Positions 23,746 through 31,969 of a stretch of DNA of 32,000 nucleotides are shown one piece after another. Position 1 is the stretch's first letter, and each line of letters begins with the position of its first letter. The notes beneath the pieces were generated by a model that saw only the letters and a list, made by a program, of their open reading frames with translations, had not been told where the DNA came from and did not search any database. Source of the DNA: Geotalea daltonii FRC-32 (lineage in GTDB: Bacteria; Desulfobacterota; Desulfuromonadia; Geobacterales; Geobacteraceae); assembly GCF_000022265.1 (NCBI RefSeq), contig NC_011979.1, forward strand, positions 1,440,001-1,472,000, written 5' to 3'. The translations under genes were made by a program, and so were the position numbers.

Positions 23746-24408
23746 TTACTGTTTTATCTGTAACTGTTGCACGTCTTCCGGGGTGTTGAGGTTGCAGAAA
23801 CATCGATCTGCTCCTGCTATGGAGGCCAGCTCCGCCGGGGTTACGGTGCGGGTGGTGATTCGGGGAAAGAGGTCGAGTATGCAGGGATTACCATCTTCCA
23901 GTTGCAGGCGCATTGCCTCCAGACAACCCTTGCCATAGACGGCGAACAGCGGCTGGAGCGCATTGCCGCTCTCGGCAATTACCGCATCGAACCCATGGCG
24001 CAGGGAGAGGAGATGGTCCATGACCATGCCTGAAGGGTAGGGGATATCGCAGGCCGAGACGAAGATGTAAGGGGTCTCGGCAAAGGAAAGGCCGGTGTAG
24101 AGCCCTCCCAGGGCGTAACCGGGGTAGATATCCTGGTGATGGCGGACGTTGTACCCGGCAAAACGTTCCGCTTCCCCACCGATGACGAGGACAGCGGCGA
24201 ATTTGCAGGCAAAGAGCCTGATGATCCGTTCCACAATGGGGAGCCCGTCGATGGGGATGAACGCTTTGTCCCGCCCCATGCGGCGGCTTTTCCCGCCGGC
24301 AAGAACGACGCCGGTCACTGAGTGATGAAAGGTGTTTTCCACAATGGCAGCCTGCGATCTATGAGACAGTGAGATGATCCGTGGCAAGTGATTCGGGTGG
24401 GTCGACAT
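23746..24408 (-). CDS. mobA: Molybdenum cofactor guanylyltransferase MobA
   Basis: GVVLAGGKSRRMGRDKAF is the N-terminal NTP-binding signature. ATG 24408 would overlap the LysR 3-prime end by 50 nt. GTG 24341 (VENTFHH...) avoids the overlap and may be the true start. Confidence 0.85.
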   Translation of the reverse strand: MSTHPNHLPRIISLSHRSQAAIVENTFHHSVTGVVLAGGKSRRMGRDKAFIPIDGLPIVERIIRLFACKFAAVLVIGGEAERFAGYNVRHHQDIYPGYALGGLYTGLSFAETPYIFVSACDIPYPSGMVMDHLLSLRHGFDAVIAESGNALQPLFAVYGKGCLEAMRLQLEDGNPCILDLFPRITTRTVTPAELASIAGADRCFCNLNTPEDVQQLQIKQ

Positions 24409-25330
24409 CCAGTGCCCGATAAATACCGAGGATGAAGTCGAGCAGGATGGGATCGATCTTGTGCTGCTCGTTCAACACCAGGTTGCGGGCCCTGGCTGAT
24501 GCGAAACCGGTGGCGTGGTGGGCCACCAGAGAGCCCTCTTCCAGATATTTAGCCACCATGCTCCGGGAGATGAAGGTTATTCCTTGCCCAGCCACGACCT
24601 CGTTGATGATGAACGGAATGTCGTCGAAAAAGACCGTATTAGCAAAGTCGCTGCTGTTTTTCCCCAAGCCCAGCATGCTTTTGTCCAGAAATCGCCTGGC
24701 GCAGCATCCGGCCTTCTTGCAGTAAAGACGTTCCCCGAGCAGCAATTCGATATCGATAGAGGGAGTGGATAGTCCCAGTTTTGGTGAACTGACGAAGATC
24801 ATCTCATCCTCTGGCAAGGAATATGCCTTGAATGCTCCCAGATTCAGATCCTCACAGTATTCGATCAGCGCCAGGTCGAATATCCCCTCCTTAAGTCCCT
24901 GCAGGGCAGTTTCGGGCATCTCGAAGACGAATTTCAGGTCGCTGGTTTCGGAATGGTTGGCCATGAAATCTTTGAGAATTCCCGGCAAATAGCTCGTGCC
25001 AAAGGGGAACGTGCAGCAAAAGCTGATCTTGCGACGTCCCTTTTGCGCCTGAAACTCCTCCAGTATCTCCCGTTCTATGTTCAGCACCTGTTGAGCTTTT
25101 TCCAGAAGGATCAATCCGGCCGGCGTCGGTTTCAGGACCGGTCCCGACCGTTCCAGCAGCAGTTGGCCGTAGTGCTCCTCCAAAGCCTGAATCCTTCTGG
25201 ATACAGCCGATTGGGTGACGCACAGGTTCAAGGCGGCTTTGGAAAAACTGCCCACCTTGGCCAGGACAAGAAGTGTTTTGAGGTAGGTAAAATCCACGGT
25301 TTTTGCCTGTAGAATGCGGTGTATGCGCAA
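24359..25330 (-). CDS. LysR-family transcriptional regulator
   Basis: The N-terminal wHTH reads FTYLKTLLVLAKVGSFSKAALNLCVTQSAVSRRIQALEEHYG, followed by a periplasmic-binding-protein-like effector domain. The track start 25330 is TTG. GTG 25297 (giving MDFTYLK...) is a plausible alternative. Confidence 0.88.
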   Translation of the reverse strand: MRIHRILQAKTVDFTYLKTLLVLAKVGSFSKAALNLCVTQSAVSRRIQALEEHYGQLLLERSGPVLKPTPAGLILLEKAQQVLNIEREILEEFQAQKGRRKISFCCTFPFGTSYLPGILKDFMANHSETSDLKFVFEMPETALQGLKEGIFDLALIEYCEDLNLGAFKAYSLPEDEMIFVSSPKLGLSTPSIDIELLLGERLYCKKAGCCARRFLDKSMLGLGKNSSDFANTVFFDDIPFIINEVVAGQGITFISRSMVAKYLEEGSLVAHHATGFASARARNLVLNEQHKIDPILLDFILGIYRALDVDPPESLATDHLTVS

Positions 25331-25361
25331 AGCGCATGGAGCCGATGAGAATGTTTCGTTT

Positions 25362-25380
25362 GAATATATTGCAGATATTC
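25362..25380. promoter_or_regulatory. Candidate LysR-type operator (GAATAT-N7-ATATTC; contains T-N11-A)
   Basis: A perfect 6-bp inverted repeat lies in the divergent intergenic region between the LysR gene and the heme/rhodanese gene. T25365-N11-A25377 fits the generic LTTR box. Confidence 0.35.
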
Positions 25381-25482
25381 CGGTAGATTACAAGTCTAAA
25401 GTTGCTTGTTCACTGGACGAAGACAACGCCCGCCTTTCTTTGGCGAAAAGATTTAAATTGTACAAATAGAAATGGAGGTTGT

Positions 25483-30168: not shown

Positions 30169-30501
30169 ATGAAAAGAATGATTACGAAACTGGCCACCAT
30201 CTTCGTTTTGGCCGCCTTTGCGACGGCCGCCTTTGCGACGGCCGCCTTTGCTGCCGGATCCGTTACCGGAAAAGTAACCGCCATCGACGGGGAAAAGGTA
30301 TCGGTGACGGTAGAAAAAGAACTCCCCGCCTGGCTGAAGAAGGGTGACTCTGTTCAGGCCATGGGTGGGTCTCCCACCGTTGTCGACGTCAAGGGAAACG
30401 TGGTCGTACTGAAATTCGGCAAGGCCAAGGCAGCAAAGATCAAGGCCGACAGCAAAATGACCATCAGTGAATCGGCCGGCGACGAGCTCCAGGGATGCTG
30501 A
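30169..30501 (+). CDS. Small periplasmic protein (ExtJ-like position) ending in Cys
   Basis: AAAGGAG lies 8 nt before ATG 30169. The signal peptide is MKRMITKLATIFVLAAFATAAFATAAFAAG. The mature part looks beta-rich (GKVTAIDGEKVSVTVEK...VVDVKGNVVVLKF). The C-terminus is ...AGDELQGC*. Confidence 0.65.
   Translation: MKRMITKLATIFVLAAFATAAFATAAFAAGSVTGKVTAIDGEKVSVTVEKELPAWLKKGDSVQAMGGSPTVVDVKGNVVVLKFGKAKAAKIKADSKMTISESAGDELQGC
30211..30255 (+). repeat. 15-bp in-frame tandem repeat (about 3 copies) inside the signal peptide coding region
   Basis: GCCGCCTTTGCGACG occurs at 30211-30225 and 30226-30240. GCCGCCTTTGCTGCC follows at 30241-30255. The repeats encode AAFAT-AAFAT-AAFAA. Confidence 0.9.
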
Positions 30502-30553
30502 AACCGGCAGAAAAAGCTTTGCACCCAGCATATGATCTATTTATGGGGAGAAT

Positions 30554-31909
30554 ATGATGAATCAATGCTTAATTGGCACCCTGGTCCTTCTTTCGGCTGC
30601 TGCCCTTCTGGCCGGCCCGGCATCTGCCGGCGGCAAGGCGGGAATCGGCTTGCAGGAGACCATTGCTGCAAAATCGGGCAAGGCGAAAACCCTTGCCGAA
30701 CTGGCAAAGATGTACGATTCCAGCTCCTGCATCGAATGCCACCAGGATAAACATGACGAAGCGCAGAAATCCATACATTCGCGCTCCATTTATGGAACGG
30801 GAAGAACGGCGTCGACCATAATGTCCGCCATCGAGAATGGCCTTATGGAACAGCCCTATTCTGGGGTCAAGAGCCCGAAGGATGTCAAGGTGGAACACCT
30901 GATGGGGTGTGCCAAGTGTCACCTGCCGCAGCTGTCCGATGCCGAGGACTCGGTGGCCCAGGAGCTCGTCAGCACCCTCTACAGCTGGAAGGATGCCCTG
31001 AAGAAGAAGGACAAGGCAGTGGCCAAGCGCGAGGAAGACAAACTCAAGAGCGTCAACATCAACTGTCTGGTCTGCCACAATCGCAATGCCATCACCCACA
31101 AGTGGCAGGACGGCTATCCCAAGGCGGGAGTGGTCTACGGATCGAAGGACGGTGATCATCCTTCAGACAAGTTCCCCAAGATGGCAATCAGCCCCATCAT
31201 GAGCGAATCGATCCAGTGCGGTCAATGCCATGGTATGGGTCCGAATATGGAGCTCGATGAGCCGACCCAATGCTGTACCTCCTACGGTAGTTATCTCTGG
31301 TCCTACAAATCGGAAGGTGGCCAGGAGAGCTGCCAGGAATGCCACATGAAGAAGAGCAAGCTCGGCCACAACATCCAGTCCTACCGTGATCCGGCCATGG
31401 CCAAGGCAGCGGTGGATTTCAAGATGGAATCCTACGGCTATCACTGGCGCGACGGCGCCGAAATAAAGCCTAAGGCGGTGGTCAAGGTAGAAATGACCAA
31501 CCGGGCCGGACACTCCATCCCCGATGGCTGACCGACCCCCAACCGACTGGTTCTGTCGGTCATAGCAAAAACGAAGGATGGCAAGGAAGTTTTCAACCAG
31601 GAAAAGATTTACATGCCGGTTCCGCAGCAGTTGGGCCGGGGTGACCGGATGGGGCGCGGCCCCTACGAGAAGAGCGGCATCATTGAGGATACCGGCTTAC
31701 CGCCGGGAAAAACGGTCCATGAAAGATTCGACATCATGTTCCCCCTTGAGGAGATGGAGGTTGACGGCAAATTTGTCAACAAACCGACCTCCTACGATCT
31801 GGATGTGACCGTTCAGCTCTGGTATCTCCCCTTCGGCACGAAGAAAACCGATCCATTCCTCTGGCACGAAGCGAGCAAGACAATCAGCATCAGCAAGAGC
31901 GGCAAATAG
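30554..31909 (+). CDS. Pentaheme c-type cytochrome read through one in-frame TGA (31529-31531), probable selenoprotein (ExtKL-like). The conservative alternative is two CDS, 30554-31531 and 31613-31909.
   Basis: GGGGAGAA lies before ATG 30554. The signal peptide is LIGTLVLLSAAALLAGPASAGG. Five CxxCH motifs are present (CIECH, CAKCH, CLVCH, CGQCH, CQECH). Both track ORFs are in the same frame, and the 81 nt between them has no other stop. A hairpin lies 10 nt after the TGA. Confidence 0.6.
31542..31560 (+). promoter_or_regulatory. SECIS-like stem-loop downstream of the in-frame UGA
   Basis: ACCGAC-UGGUUCU-GUCGGU has a 6-bp stem and a 7-nt loop. The loop GGUU lies about 21-24 nt from the U of UGA. 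An alternative 8-bp pairing joins TGACCGAC (31529-31536) with GTCGGTCA (31555-31562). Confidence 0.5.
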
Positions 31910-31939
31910 CAACAATCGTTGTACCTCCTTCCTCGTAAT

Positions 31940-31969
31940 GGCCGGCGAACCGTTCGCCGGCCTTTTTTT
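31940..31969 (+). terminator. Rho-independent terminator closing the cytochrome operon
   Basis: GGCCGGCGAA-CCG-TTCGCCGGCC (10-bp stem) is followed by T7 (31963-31969). Confidence 0.85.

What the first reader, a model, noticed from the sequence alone, without database searches (positions are those of the whole stretch)
24359..31969. Extended ExtHIJKL-like envelope module: LysR, heme-c/tri-rhodanese, rhodanese lipoprotein, porin, two small secreted proteins and a Sec-cytochrome
Six consecutive same-strand genes all carry export signals. One terminator (31940-31969) closes the set, and a divergent LysR regulator has a palindromic box (25362-25380). The rhodanese lipoprotein, beta-barrel, small periplasmic protein and 5-heme cytochrome occur in the order I recall for the Geobacter sulfurreducens extHIJKL cluster. 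That cluster has been implicated in selenite/tellurite reduction and proposed as an outer-membrane electron conduit. This locus adds components I do not associate with it: a periplasmic mono-heme/triple-rhodanese fusion upstream and an extra secreted low-complexity protein between the porin and the ExtJ-like gene. Five rhodanese domains, two C-terminal-Cys proteins, a porin and a Sec-heme protein together suggest a persulfide/perselenide relay coupled to heme electron transfer across the envelope. A plain metal-reducing conduit seems less likely. mobA and mobB next door (bis-MGD cofactor synthesis) fit a chalcogen-oxyanion respiration neighbourhood, but that link is speculative.
Basis: partly seen in the sequence, partly recalled or inferred. 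Interest (0 to 1): 0.8.

Follow-up and report, generated by a model that had tools for sequence, protein, structure and literature searches.

The report
Known sulfur-respiration operon with extra rhodanese
This is the Geotalea daltonii copy of the Geobacter extHIJKL cluster, whose selenium- and heme-containing enzyme (MccSep) was recently shown to reduce polysulfide so the cell can breathe elemental sulfur; this copy has gained a heme-rhodanese gene from another sulfur-reductase cluster, and it shows conserved terminal cysteines that may carry the sulfur.

Summary
A divergent LysR gene faces six same-strand genes for exported proteins, closed by a strong terminator. The locus is 100% identical to Geotalea daltonii FRC-32 DNA. 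Five genes pass curated NCBIfam cut-offs: the multiheme-cytochrome-associated LysR, ExtH, ExtI, ExtJ and ExtKL. The cytochrome runs through an in-frame UGA. It matches the crystal structure of G. sulfurreducens MccSep at E 1e-243, with all catalytic residues kept. MccSep is a periplasmic polysulfide reductase essential for S0 respiration (Mihara 2026). So this is not an electron conduit across the outer membrane; the substrate crosses instead.

The two extra genes are lineage-specific. The heme/tri-rhodanese lies in the LysR–extH spacer only here and in G. toluenoxydans. Its family normally sits in DUF3373 / small-protein / Psr-Phs-like clusters. The small secreted protein occurs in only some relatives.

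Two points seem not yet described in the papers I read. ExtH ends in G-G-C in 118 of 120 homologues, and ExtJ ends in Q/E-G-C in 53 of 54. The ExtH/I/J genes also precede Psr/Phs-like molybdoenzymes in place of MccSep in other genomes. Both point to a substrate-delivery role, which is untested.

The system is known; this is a modest new variant with a testable idea attached.

The parts
24359..25330 (-). LysR-family regulator, divergent from the operon
   Evidence: Pfam HTH_1 and LysR_substrate. NCBIfam NF041036 'multiheme cytochrome-associated LysR' scores 361 bits against a cut-off of 210. It holds the same divergent position in the ExtH-bearing Geobacterales loci where a LysR hit was found and in the published survey (PMC6148476).
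25354..25394 (.). Conserved operator-like stretch next to LysR. It contains the palindrome GAATAT-N7-ATATTC (25362-25380) and ATTGCA/ATTACA repeats 20 bp apart.
   Evidence: The sequence is. It is identical in Geotalea sp. SG265 (L002), which lacks the heme-rhodanese gene. In Geomonas and Citrifermentans the conserved pieces are TCGTTTG, ATATTGCA and, 14 nt further, ATTGCAA, while the palindrome is not kept. Function as a LysR site is inferred.
25483..26907 (+). Exported mono-heme-c (C47xxCH) plus three-rhodanese protein, a lineage-specific insertion
   Evidence: Pfam finds three rhodanese stretches. No NCBIfam family passes its cut-off. The family has 491 hits at 55-66% identity. The invariant residues are CxxCH, C212/C217 in rhodanese 1, Asp in place of the active-site Cys in rhodanese 2, and C433 in rhodanese 3. 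The gene sits between LysR and ExtH only here and in G. toluenoxydans. The AF2 model has a disordered arm carrying CxxCH, a beta domain at 58-136, and three rhodanese domains resembling YnjE and EanB.
27131..28459 (+). ExtH: tandem-rhodanese lipoprotein with a Gly-rich C-terminal tail ending in Cys
   Evidence: NF040901 scores 404 bits against a cut-off of 200. It is 100% identical to the G. daltonii FRC-32 protein. It aligns over both domains of two-domain rhodaneses in PDB. Among 120 homologues, the active site CR[AS]GN.A[ST] is present in 119, the tail ends in ...G-G-C in 118, and the lipobox is [ILM]WGC in most.
28526..29731 (+). ExtI: outer-membrane anion-porin-like beta-barrel
   Evidence: NF040900 scores 717 bits against a cut-off of 150. 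Pfam Porin_O_P matches over the full length. It has a signal peptide and a C-terminal Phe. ExtI was shown to be an outer-membrane protein needed for selenite/tellurite reduction in G. sulfurreducens (PMC5877670).
29807..30118 (+). Small secreted or lipoprotein-like low-complexity protein ('SmallX'), an accessory gene
   Evidence: No Pfam or NCBIfam hit. Homologues lie between extI and extJ only in L001, L002, L003, L007 and L017. In L004 a homologue sits after extS instead. It is absent from Geomonas, Citrifermentans and G. metallireducens. Invariant features are Cys12 in the signal region and the motifs YRSG, DE.S, ISY and EWA.P.
30169..30501 (+). ExtJ: small periplasmic beta-barrel protein with an invariant C-terminal Gly-Cys
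   Evidence: NF040942 scores 66.8 bits against a cut-off of 52.5. 53 of 54 homologues end in [QE]GC. A profile search of 1.84 billion representatives gave 97 hits, most of them about 100-aa proteins with signal-peptide-like N-termini ending in x-G-C. The AF2 model is a six-strand barrel with a floppy tail.
30554..31909 (+). MccSep (ExtKL): five-heme selenocysteine polysulfide reductase, UGA at 31529-31531
   Evidence: It matches PDB 9wt8/9wt9 (G. sulfurreducens MccSep) at E 1e-243 over the full length. NF040886 scores 606 bits against a cut-off of 250. It keeps five CxxCH motifs and the equivalents of R83, H122, C239, U325 and K372. The same in-frame TGA is present in 75 of 75 related loci. 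The peptide VEMTNRAGHSIPDG-U-PTPNR differs by one residue from the peptide mass-mapped in PMC13510729.
31529..31562 (+). SECIS-like hairpin directly after, and possibly including, the UGA
   Evidence: CCGAC-UGGUUCU-GUCGG starts 11 nt after the UGA. The minimum free energy is -15.5 kcal/mol and z is -3.3 against shuffles. The sequence is nearly invariant across Geobacterales. No Rfam family matched. Function is inferred from the G. sulfurreducens orthologue.
31940..31969 (+). Intrinsic terminator after MccSep
   Evidence: A 10-bp stem with 8 GC pairs, a 3-nt loop and a T7 run. It is the only strong plus-strand hit in 24300-32000.

Best explanation
This is the front half of the G. daltonii FRC-32 extHIJKL-MNOPQS cluster, a LysR-controlled system for respiring elemental sulfur through polysulfide.

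Shown in the G. sulfurreducens orthologues:
- MccSep (ExtKL) is a periplasmic tetrameric five-heme selenoenzyme. Its Sec and the Cys-ligated heme 2 cleave polysulfide, and less well selenite. It is needed for growth on S0.
- ExtI is an outer-membrane protein, and its loss impairs selenite/tellurite reduction.

Inferred here:
- ExtI, which is like an anion porin, admits polysulfide or selenite.
- The lipoprotein rhodanese ExtH and the small barrel protein ExtJ capture sulfane sulfur and hand it to MccSep. Their invariant C-terminal cysteines on flexible tails probably carry it.
- Electrons come from the quinol pool through ExtMNOPQS, encoded just past the window.
- The heme/tri-rhodanese is an extra periplasmic sulfur-handling protein. 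It was recruited from a DUF3373 / small-GC-protein / Psr-Phs-type cluster and inserted between the LysR operator and extH, so it is probably co-transcribed.
- The small low-complexity protein is an optional accessory of unknown role.
For: Identity:
- Curated family scores are above cut-off for the LysR, ExtH, ExtI, ExtJ and ExtKL.
- The cytochrome matches the MccSep crystal structure sequence at E 1e-243, with R83, H122, C239, U325 and K372 kept.
- The TGA is at the same site in 75 of 75 loci, followed by a SECIS-like hairpin.
- The DNA is 100% identical to a contig that continues into extM-S. The downstream genes were identified by NCBIfam in relatives.

Function of the core: PMC13510729 (polysulfide reductase, S0 growth defect, S0 induction, periplasmic location) and PMC5877670 (ExtI).

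Delivery role of ExtH/I/J:
- The same rhodanese-lipoprotein / ExtI / ExtJ genes precede a PhsA/PsrA-like molybdoenzyme in place of MccSep in L084 and L089. In L083 only ExtI and ExtJ precede it. L084 and L089 continue with ExtM-like genes.
- A second pair, DUF3373 plus a roughly 107-aa protein ending TAGC, precedes either a Psr/Phs-like enzyme (L080-82) or MccSep (L046, L048).
- The terminal cysteines are nearly invariant: ExtH 118 of 120, ExtJ 53 of 54.
- Periplasmic rhodaneses that feed sulfur reductases have precedent in Wolinella Sud and Aquifex (cited in PMC6378623 and PMC6148476).

Insertion: the L002 LysR-extH spacer equals the window's LysR-proximal part plus its extH leader. No plus-strand terminator lies between the inserted gene and extH.
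Against: - Nothing has been measured in G. daltonii.
- MccSep reduces free polysulfide in vitro without any carrier (PMC13510729).
- Most MccSep loci outside Desulfuromonadia-like lineages lack ExtH/I/J, so these proteins are helpers, not requirements.
- Published ext phenotypes also include selenite/tellurite and partial Fe/Mn reduction (PMC5877670, PMC6148476).
- ExtJ has no significant fold match to known sulfur carriers.
- Heme attachment to the tri-rhodanese is inferred from a single CxxCH.
- Co-transcription of the inserted gene is not shown. The sigma-70 scan found no promoter on the plus strand.
- The context evidence for module swapping rests on a handful of contigs.
Confidence: 0.82

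Rival explanations
1. The cluster is an outer-membrane electron conduit (porin-cytochrome type) that passes electrons to extracellular Fe(III), Mn(IV) or electrodes, as first proposed for extHIJKL.
For: In G. sulfurreducens, strains keeping only extHIJKL still reduced part of the Fe(III) and Mn(IV) oxide, and deleting the cluster lowered Fe(III) citrate reduction (PMC6148476). The cluster pairs a beta-barrel with a multiheme cytochrome.
Against: There is no outer-surface cytochrome; the lipoprotein is a rhodanese. MccSep is periplasmic and has a substrate channel and a Sec/Cys-heme active site (PMC13510729). ExtI belongs to the Porin_O_P family of anion porins rather than to the cytochrome-sheathing barrels. 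The same ExtH/I/J genes also serve Psr/Phs-like enzymes. Sulfide made from traces of sulfur could reduce metals abiotically; that last point is my inference.
Confidence: 0.05
2. The system is primarily for selenite/tellurite uptake and reduction, for detoxification or for selenium supply to selenoproteins. This is what the NCBIfam names say.
For: Loss of ExtI impairs selenite/tellurite reduction (PMC5877670). MccSep reduces selenite (Vmax 59 against 83 for polysulfide; K0.5 0.99 mM against 0.19 mM) (PMC13510729). Rhodaneses can carry perselenide (reference cited in PMC5877670). The second-best LysR model is 'selenium metabolism-associated', but its 121 bits fall below the 250 cut-off.
Against: Polysulfide is the better substrate. 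The mutant cannot grow on S0, and expression is induced by S0 (PMC13510729). A millimolar K0.5 for selenite is far above environmental levels. MccSep is swapped with Psr/Phs-type sulfur reductases in the same gene frame.
Confidence: 0.1
3. The two extra genes are passengers. The heme/tri-rhodanese serves another enzyme, such as a Psr/Phs-like complex elsewhere in the genome, or does nothing here. The small protein is a fast-evolving filler gene.
For: The heme/tri-rhodanese is in this position only in two sister species. Its family's usual partners are DUF3373, a TAGC-ending small protein, a cytochrome and a PhsA-like enzyme. SmallX is missing from many functional-looking ext clusters.
Against: The gene was inserted precisely between the conserved LysR operator and the extH leader, on the same strand, with an RBS identical to that of extH (GGAGGTTGTATG) and no terminator after it. 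It is kept intact at 96% identity in G. toluenoxydans, and all family-invariant cysteines and the CxxCH are present. SmallX keeps invariant motifs and appears at two different positions inside ext clusters.
Confidence: 0.25

Closest known systems
G. sulfurreducens extHIJKL-MNOPQS cluster with MccSep (GSU2940-2930; PDB 9wt8)
   Same: The gene order LysR(-)/ExtH/ExtI/ExtJ/ExtKL is the same. All five are above curated family cut-offs. MccSep aligns at E 1e-243 over its full length with all catalytic residues, the Sec codon and a SECIS-like hairpin. ExtM-S follow downstream.
   Different: An extra heme/tri-rhodanese gene lies between LysR and extH. An extra small secreted protein lies between extI and extJ. 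A terminator and a chemoreceptor-gene remnant separate mccsep from extM. I could not fetch the G. sulfurreducens locus itself. G. metallireducens (L087) served as the genus Geobacter comparison, and it lacks both extras.
Wolinella succinogenes Sud + PsrABC, and the Aquifex rhodanese that supplies sulfur to its reductase
   Same: A periplasmic rhodanese-type protein with a single catalytic Cys binds polysulfide sulfur and feeds a periplasm-facing polysulfide reductase (background cited in PMC6378623 and PMC6148476). ExtH-like and heme/tri-rhodanese genes sit beside PhsA/PsrA-like enzymes in L080-82, L084 and L089.
   Different: The terminal enzyme here is a heme/Sec protein, not a molybdoenzyme. 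ExtH is a lipoprotein with two rhodanese domains and a Cys-ended tail. A porin and a small GC-tailed protein belong to the set. No sulfur-transfer assay exists for ExtH.
SoxYZ (C-terminal GGCGG arm) working with SoxAX, and the DsrC C-terminal Cys arm
   Same: A cysteine at the end of a flexible C-terminal arm carries the sulfur substrate into enzymes, one of which (SoxAX) uses a His/Cys-ligated heme like MccSep heme 2. The MccSep authors themselves draw the SoxAX/TsdA parallel (PMC13510729). ExtH (…GGGC) and ExtJ (…QGC) have such arms.
   Different: ExtJ has no sequence or significant fold similarity to SoxY or DsrC. It is a six-strand barrel whose best PDB hits have E above 2e-3. The Cys is the very last residue. 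The carrier role is untested. The SoxY and DsrC features are stated from general knowledge.
OprP/OprO phosphate-selective porins (Pfam Porin_O_P)
   Same: ExtI matches the Porin_O_P profile end to end (positions 2-370 of 370, E 4e-14). That fits an anion channel.
   Different: No solved structure is detectable by sequence. ExtI expression does not respond to phosphate (PMC5877670). The substrate is presumed to be polysulfide or selenite.
E. coli YnjE (periplasmic three-domain rhodanese) and other multi-rhodanese proteins (EanB, PDB 1yt8)
   Same: The three-rhodanese body of the 25483-26907 product superposes on these (Foldseek E 1e-9 to 2e-13). One domain lacks the catalytic Cys, which is typical of multi-domain rhodaneses.
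   Different: It has an N-terminal CxxCH arm and a beta domain with no detectable relatives, and two cysteines in the first active-site loop (C212, C217).

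Membership tests
MccSep / ExtKL multiheme (seleno)cytochrome (NF040886) | Full-length homology above the curated cut-off | tested here: met
   606 bits against a cut-off of 250. PDB 9wt8/9wt9 at E 1e-243, residues 12-451.
MccSep / ExtKL multiheme (seleno)cytochrome (NF040886) | Five CxxCH motifs plus the conserved Sec/Cys site, the heme-2 Cys ligand, and the R83 and K372 equivalents | tested here: met
   CxxCH motifs at 59, 119, 171, 222 and 260. R84, H123, C240, U326 and K373 align with R83, H122, C239, U325 and K372.
MccSep / ExtKL multiheme (seleno)cytochrome (NF040886) | In-frame UGA followed by a SECIS-like stem-loop, actually decoded as Sec | tested here: inconclusive
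   The UGA is present here and in 75 of 75 loci. The hairpin has dG -15.5 and z -3.3, with 11-nt spacing. No Rfam model matched. The consensus fold across phyla was uninformative. Decoding is proven only in G. sulfurreducens (PMC13510729).
MccSep / ExtKL multiheme (seleno)cytochrome (NF040886) | Polysulfide reductase activity and periplasmic tetramer | not testable with these tools
   Biochemistry exists only for the G. sulfurreducens orthologue.
ExtH rhodanese-like lipoprotein (NF040901) | Equivalog score, lipobox, tandem rhodanese with a catalytic Cys in the second domain | tested here: met
   404 bits against a cut-off of 200. Lipobox IWGC. CRAGNIAS motif. It aligns over both domains of two-domain rhodaneses in PDB.
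ExtI porin (NF040900) | Equivalog score, Porin_O_P fold family, outer-membrane targeting features | tested here: met
   717 bits against a cut-off of 150. Porin_O_P positions 2-370 of 370. Signal peptide and terminal Phe.
ExtJ (NF040942) | Equivalog score; position between extI and extKL | tested here: met
   66.8 bits against a cut-off of 52.5. Syntenic in 21 loci.
Multiheme cytochrome-associated LysR (NF041036) | Subfamily score; divergent position upstream of the ext cluster | tested here: met
   361 bits against a cut-off of 210. Same arrangement in relatives and in PMC6148476.
Porin-cytochrome / Mtr-type outer-membrane electron conduit | Periplasmic multiheme cytochrome, a sheath barrel, and an outer-surface multiheme lipoprotein cytochrome | tested here: not met
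   The only lipoprotein is a rhodanese with no heme motif. The barrel is Porin_O_P-like. The cytochrome is a periplasmic enzyme (PMC13510729).
SoxY-type sulfur carrier (considered for ExtJ) | SoxY Ig-like fold and a C-terminal GGCGG motif | tested here: not met
   No Pfam SoxY hit. The AF2 model is a small six-strand barrel with no significant PDB match, and no SoxY among the 50 best matches listed. The tail is [DE]E[LM]QGC, not GGCGG. Only the idea of a terminal-Cys arm is shared.
Psr/Phs molybdopterin polysulfide/thiosulfate reductase system (usual home of the heme/tri-rhodanese) | A PsrA/PhsA-like catalytic subunit with FeS and NrfD subunits in the locus | tested here: not met
   None is in the window; positions 1-24000 hold housekeeping genes. 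None is in the identical extended contig either. Only mobA and mobB lie nearby.

The most novel reading that the evidence does not exclude
ExtH and ExtJ, and the analogous TAGC-ended 107-aa proteins, are covalent sulfur shuttles. Their invariant last-residue cysteines sit on flexible tails. They would pick up sulfane sulfur at or through the outer-membrane barrel (ExtI or DUF3373) and insert it as protein-bound polysulfide into the substrate channel of whichever periplasmic reductase is encoded next, either MccSep or a Psr/Phs-like enzyme. That would define a portable 'substrate front-end' for respiration of insoluble sulfur. It would work like SoxYZ run in the reductive direction. The G. daltonii heme/tri-rhodanese would then be a hybrid between the two front-end types.
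Probability: 0.3. Interest if true: 0.65.

Novelty: new variant of a known kind. Interest (0 to 1): 0.4.

Why it matters
The terminal enzyme of S0 respiration in Geobacter-type bacteria was identified only in 2026. Its authors state that how polysulfide reaches the periplasm, and whether sulfur-transfer proteins take part, is unknown. This locus and its relatives point to concrete candidates:
- a rhodanese lipoprotein and a small barrel protein, each ending in an almost invariant cysteine;
- an anion-type porin;
- the fact that this set is exchanged as a unit between the heme/selenium reductase and molybdenum reductases.

That turns the delivery question into a few point mutants and mass-spectrometry experiments. 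It also warns that the database names 'selenite/tellurite reduction operon' and 'electron conduit' probably describe side activities. The G. daltonii variant itself is a modest lineage-specific elaboration.

Tried and rejected
- Rfam found no SECIS or any other family, at gathering thresholds over the whole window or at E ≤ 10 around the UGA (one chance lncRNA hit).
- RNAalifold on 57 UGA-downstream segments gave only a trivial 4-bp consensus with no compensatory pairs. The Geobacterales and the other phyla use differently placed hairpins. I therefore make no covariation claim.
- I suspected that the heme-proximal beta domain of the tri-rhodanese is homologous to ExtJ or to the 107-aa TAGC protein. 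hhalign gave probabilities of 5% and 2%, so I dropped the idea.
- The fold search with the ExtJ model gave only generic small barrels (the F1-ATPase N-terminal domain, riboflavin synthase) at E above 2e-3. No carrier family can be assigned.
- ExtI has no PDB relative by sequence, even at E ≤ 1.
- The sigma-70 scan found no plus-strand promoter in the region. That is uninformative for Geobacter.
- The single genome-contig scan did not return G. sulfurreducens, and none of the named hits in the protein searches was from it. G. metallireducens (L087) was used instead.
- Three of the six context look-ups for distant ExtJ relatives landed on contigs under 1.2 kb.
- tblastn and hmmsearch found no ExtH, ExtI or ExtJ beside MccSep in Nitrospirota and most Desulfobulbia loci. 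They are not universal partners of MccSep.

Full report
**What is there.** Between 24359 and 31969 the window holds a minus-strand LysR gene and six plus-strand genes, separated by 223, 66, 75, 50 and 52 bp. Read by eye (no signal-peptide predictor was available), every product starts with a basic n-region, a hydrophobic core, and either an AxA-type site or a lipobox (AIWG|C in the second gene). The only strong plus-strand terminator in 24300-32000 is the 10-bp, 8-GC hairpin at 31940-31962 followed by T7. The palindrome GAATAT-N7-ATATTC is at 25362-25380. The last gene is one reading frame from 30554 to 31909, interrupted only by TGA at 31529-31531. The first plus-strand gene most likely starts at the RBS-preceded ATG at 25483, not at the TTG that opens the ORF.

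**Source.** The second gene's product is 100% identical to a Geotalea daltonii FRC-32 protein. A public contig, L088, is 100% identical to window 22367-32000 and runs further. The nearest other genome, G. toluenoxydans (L017), is collinear at 94-95% DNA identity.

**Identity of the parts.** NCBIfam equivalog or subfamily models score well above their curated cut-offs:
- the 'multiheme cytochrome-associated' LysR: 361 against 210;
- ExtH: 404 against 200;
- ExtI: 717 against 150;
- ExtJ: 66.8 against 52.5;
- ExtKL: 606 against 250.

The cytochrome, read through the UGA, matches the sequence of the solved structure of G. sulfurreducens MccSep (9wt8/9wt9) at E 1e-243 over residues 12-451. It keeps the five CxxCH motifs and the equivalents of R83, H122, C239, U325 and K372. 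The peptide around the UGA, VEMTNRAGHSIPDG-U-PTPNR, differs by one residue from the selenopeptide mass-mapped in G. sulfurreducens (PMC13510729). All 75 related loci that align to the end of the N-terminal part carry TGA at the same codon. In the window the UGA is followed after 11 nt by CCGAC-UGGUUCU-GUCGG. The 44-nt segment folds at -15.5 kcal/mol, z = -3.3. Rfam has no model that matches, and a cross-phylum consensus fold was uninformative. The SECIS assignment therefore rests on position, stability and the proven orthologue.

ExtH aligns over both domains of two-domain rhodaneses. ExtI matches Pfam Porin_O_P end to end.

**What the system does.** The literature settles the core.
- extHIJKL was first listed as a putative outer-membrane electron conduit. 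The authors already noted that it has a rhodanese lipoprotein instead of a surface cytochrome, that a LysR gene lies upstream of almost all such clusters, that ExtH is often replaced by a divergent rhodanese, and that some clusters contain an additional small lipoprotein (PMC6148476).
- ExtI is an outer-membrane protein whose loss impairs selenite/tellurite reduction. G. daltonii FRC-32 is named among the genomes that carry the cluster (PMC5877670).
- In 2026 ExtKL was purified as MccSep. It is a periplasmic tetramer with five hemes and one Sec per subunit, and it reduces polysulfide (K0.5 0.19 mM) and, less well, selenite (0.99 mM). It is induced by S0 and needed for growth on S0. Sec325 and the heme-2 ligand Cys239 are essential (PMC13510729).
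- That paper states that the route of polysulfide into the periplasm, and any sulfur-transfer components, remain unknown.

Electrons, however, do not cross the envelope here. The substrate must.

**Beyond the window.** In L088 the terminator is followed by a 64-codon remnant of a chemoreceptor gene on the other strand. Then come a 617-aa and a 416-aa multiheme cytochrome, a Rieske protein, a cytochrome b, a 137-aa membrane protein and a c-type cytochrome. In relatives the corresponding genes are ExtM, ExtN, ExtP, ExtQ and ExtS by NCBIfam; the 137-aa gene, in the ExtO position, matches only Rieske-type models below their cut-offs. G. toluenoxydans has an intact chemoreceptor gene at that place. 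The finding is thus the front half of a larger cluster.

**The two extra genes.** I ran tblastn with all window proteins against 79 loci fetched with the MccSep N-terminal part.
- LysR/ExtH/ExtI/ExtJ/MccSep synteny appears in about 18 Geobacterales-type loci.
- The heme/tri-rhodanese lies between LysR and ExtH only in G. toluenoxydans (96% identity).
- In Geotalea sp. SG265 the LysR-extH spacer is the window's LysR-proximal stretch, including the identical palindrome, joined to the window's extH leader. The gene is therefore an insertion into that spacer. It carries the same GGAGGTTGTATG start context as extH, and no plus-strand terminator follows it.

The protein belongs to a large, unnamed family: 491 hits, about 465 aa, 55-66% identity, mostly Geobacteraceae and Desulfuromonadales metagenomes. 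The family's invariant features are the CxxCH, two cysteines in the first rhodanese loop, Asp in place of the catalytic Cys in the second, and Cys in the third. In the three long contigs I examined, its gene lies in a different cluster. The order there is DUF3373 protein, a 107-aa secreted protein, the heme/tri-rhodanese, a cytochrome, a TAT-signal PhsA/PsrA-like molybdoenzyme, NrfD, and an FeS subunit. AlphaFold places the CxxCH on a disordered N-terminal arm, followed by a beta domain (58-136) and three rhodanese domains that resemble YnjE and EanB.

The small protein (29807-30118) has homologues between extI and extJ in five relatives. In one genome (L004) a homologue sits after extS instead. 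It is absent from Geomonas, Citrifermentans and G. metallireducens. It keeps an invariant Cys in the signal region, which may be a lipobox, and the motifs YRSG, DE.S, ISY and a C-terminal EWA.P around a variable low-complexity linker. It hits no family library.

**Points that seem not to be in the literature I could read.**

(i) Terminal cysteines. All intact ExtH proteins in the loci end in G-G-C after a Ser/Thr/Gly-rich tail. So do 118 of 120 database homologues, and the two exceptions look like incomplete sequences that stop before the tail. 119 of 120 keep the CR[AS]GN.A[ST] rhodanese site. ExtJ ends in [DE]E[LM]-Q/E-G-C in 53 of 54 homologues. A profile search of 1.84 billion representative proteins found 97 relatives. 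Most are about 100 aa, have signal-peptide-like N-termini and end in x-G-C; a few end in C-G-x. The ExtJ model is a six-strand barrel with a low-confidence tail. It has no significant PDB match. The unrelated-looking 107/108-aa proteins of the DUF3373 clusters also end in T-A-G-C.

(ii) Module exchange. Three distant ExtJ relatives on contigs of 12.6, 13.8 and 19.9 kb lie in the following orders:
- L083: LysR(-) / ExtI-like porin / ExtJ-like / PhsA-like molybdoenzyme / FeS / cytochrome b;
- L084: two ExtH / ExtI / ExtJ / PhsA-like / FeS / NrfD / ExtM / ExtN / Rieske / cytochrome b;
- L089: LysR(-) / 632-aa rhodanese lipoprotein ending GGGC / porin / ExtJ-like / PhsA-like / FeS / NrfD / multiheme cytochrome.

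Conversely, in Dissulfurispiraceae a DUF3373 protein, a TAGC protein and a multiheme cytochrome precede MccSep. So two 'outer-membrane protein plus small GC-tailed protein (plus rhodanese)' sets combine with two kinds of periplasmic sulfur reductase in all four ways. This is the strongest comparative argument that ExtH/I/J handle the substrate and not electrons. The G. daltonii cluster mixes a rhodanese from one set into the other.

**Mechanism, with its status.**
- Shown in the orthologue: Sec- and heme-dependent polysulfide cleavage in the periplasm, S0 induction, and the outer-membrane location of ExtI.
- Inferred from family membership: ExtI is an anion channel, and ExtH and the tri-rhodanese form persulfides on their catalytic cysteines.
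- Inferred from conservation and context only: the terminal cysteines of ExtH and ExtJ carry sulfane sulfur towards MccSep, in the manner of SoxY or DsrC arms. Those two comparisons come from general knowledge. The MccSep authors themselves liken the chemistry to SoxAX and TsdA run in reverse.

Caveats:
- MccSep works on free polysulfide in vitro.
- Most MccSep loci in Nitrospirota and Desulfobulbia have no ExtH/I/J.
- ExtJ is not a SoxY homologue.
- The context sample is small.
- Other roles for a terminal Cys cannot be excluded. It could be a heme or metal ligand, or it could form an intermolecular disulfide between ExtH and ExtJ.

**Regulation.** The stretch next to LysR (25354-25394) is conserved across genera as TCGTTTG…ATATTGCA…N14…ATT[GA]CAA. 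It is a plausible LysR site, but that is not shown.

mobA and mobB lie next to LysR in the three Geotalea genomes. In L004 they lie at the far end of the cluster, and in L014 just downstream of MccSep. That could be a relic of a Psr-type ancestor or simple chance. The window contains no molybdoenzyme.

**Verdict.** This is a real, well-delimited feature and a member of a known, recently characterised system, in a genome where the cluster had already been catalogued. The variant features, an inserted heme/tri-rhodanese and a small accessory protein, are modest. The value added lies in the near-invariant terminal cysteines and the front-end/reductase exchange. Together they make the open question of sulfur delivery to MccSep directly testable.

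Noticed in passing
window 27372-28418 (inside extH), against L017:6779-7874: G. daltonii and G. toluenoxydans are 94-95% identical on both sides, but the core of extH does not align at the DNA level. Each genome carries a different ExtH type: the window's resembles L001/L002/L004, and L017's resembles L003/L008. The N-terminal lipoprotein part and the GGGC tail are kept. This looks like allele replacement by recombination of an exposed component. The L017 gene is also split into three frames; I do not know whether those are assembly errors or real frameshifts.
   Followed up: partly
window 30211-30240 (extJ signal peptide): The window's ExtJ is 110 aa where most full-length homologues are 104-106 aa. 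The difference is a 15-bp tandem duplication that adds AAFAT to the hydrophobic core of the signal peptide.
   Followed up: no
L088:9770-9964 (about 170-360 bp beyond the window end): A 64-codon minus-strand ORF lies between the mccsep terminator and extM. It sits where G. toluenoxydans (L017:11584-13218) and L004 have an intact 544-565-aa methyl-accepting chemotaxis protein gene, so it is probably a remnant. In G. metallireducens a chemoreceptor gene also sits next to the LysR.
   Followed up: partly
L002:13626-14021 and L017:13655-14047: A second ExtJ paralogue lies just upstream of extM in Geotalea sp. SG265 (it ends EELQGC) and in G. toluenoxydans (C-terminus disrupted). There is none at that place in G. 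daltonii.
   Followed up: no
L001:16739-18532 (-), with similar hits in L003 and L007: A 597-aa CoA-disulfide-reductase-like flavoprotein with a C-terminal rhodanese domain lies convergent to the end of the ext cluster, after extS. This is the architecture of NADH-dependent persulfide reductases.
   Followed up: no
window 23222-24408 (-) and L004:17123-18216 (-): mobB and mobA overlap and abut LysR here, in L002 and in L017. In L004 the same pair lies at the opposite end of the cluster, right after a SmallX paralogue that overlaps the extS stop. This is a recurrent neighbourhood with no molybdoenzyme in the cluster.
   Followed up: partly
L005, L006, L008, L010, L011, L016, L063 (LysR-extH spacers of 480-540 bp): Geomonas spacers hold a second, internal copy of the LysR-proximal sequence (…ATGCG…GCGCATGA…CTATGA…TTTCACTTGAGTAGTT). 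They also hold a conserved TTGACA…TATTTTAAC promoter-like element near extH. Neither is seen in the window.
   Followed up: no
window 20034-22274 (+) and 22887-23072 (+): Two adjacent, unannotated ORFs (352 aa and 392 aa) whose translations look like a nucleotide-binding ATPase and a large soluble partner; I did not scan them, and the DNA 19183-22275 is also conserved in L002. They are followed by a 61-aa ORF that corresponds to the L088 gene annotated as weak DUF2007. The upstream 1-19000 holds housekeeping genes: PriA, a flavodiiron-type protein, a GGDEF protein, GltB, a lipoyl-ligase-family gene, a radical-SAM gene and a sigma factor.
   Followed up: no
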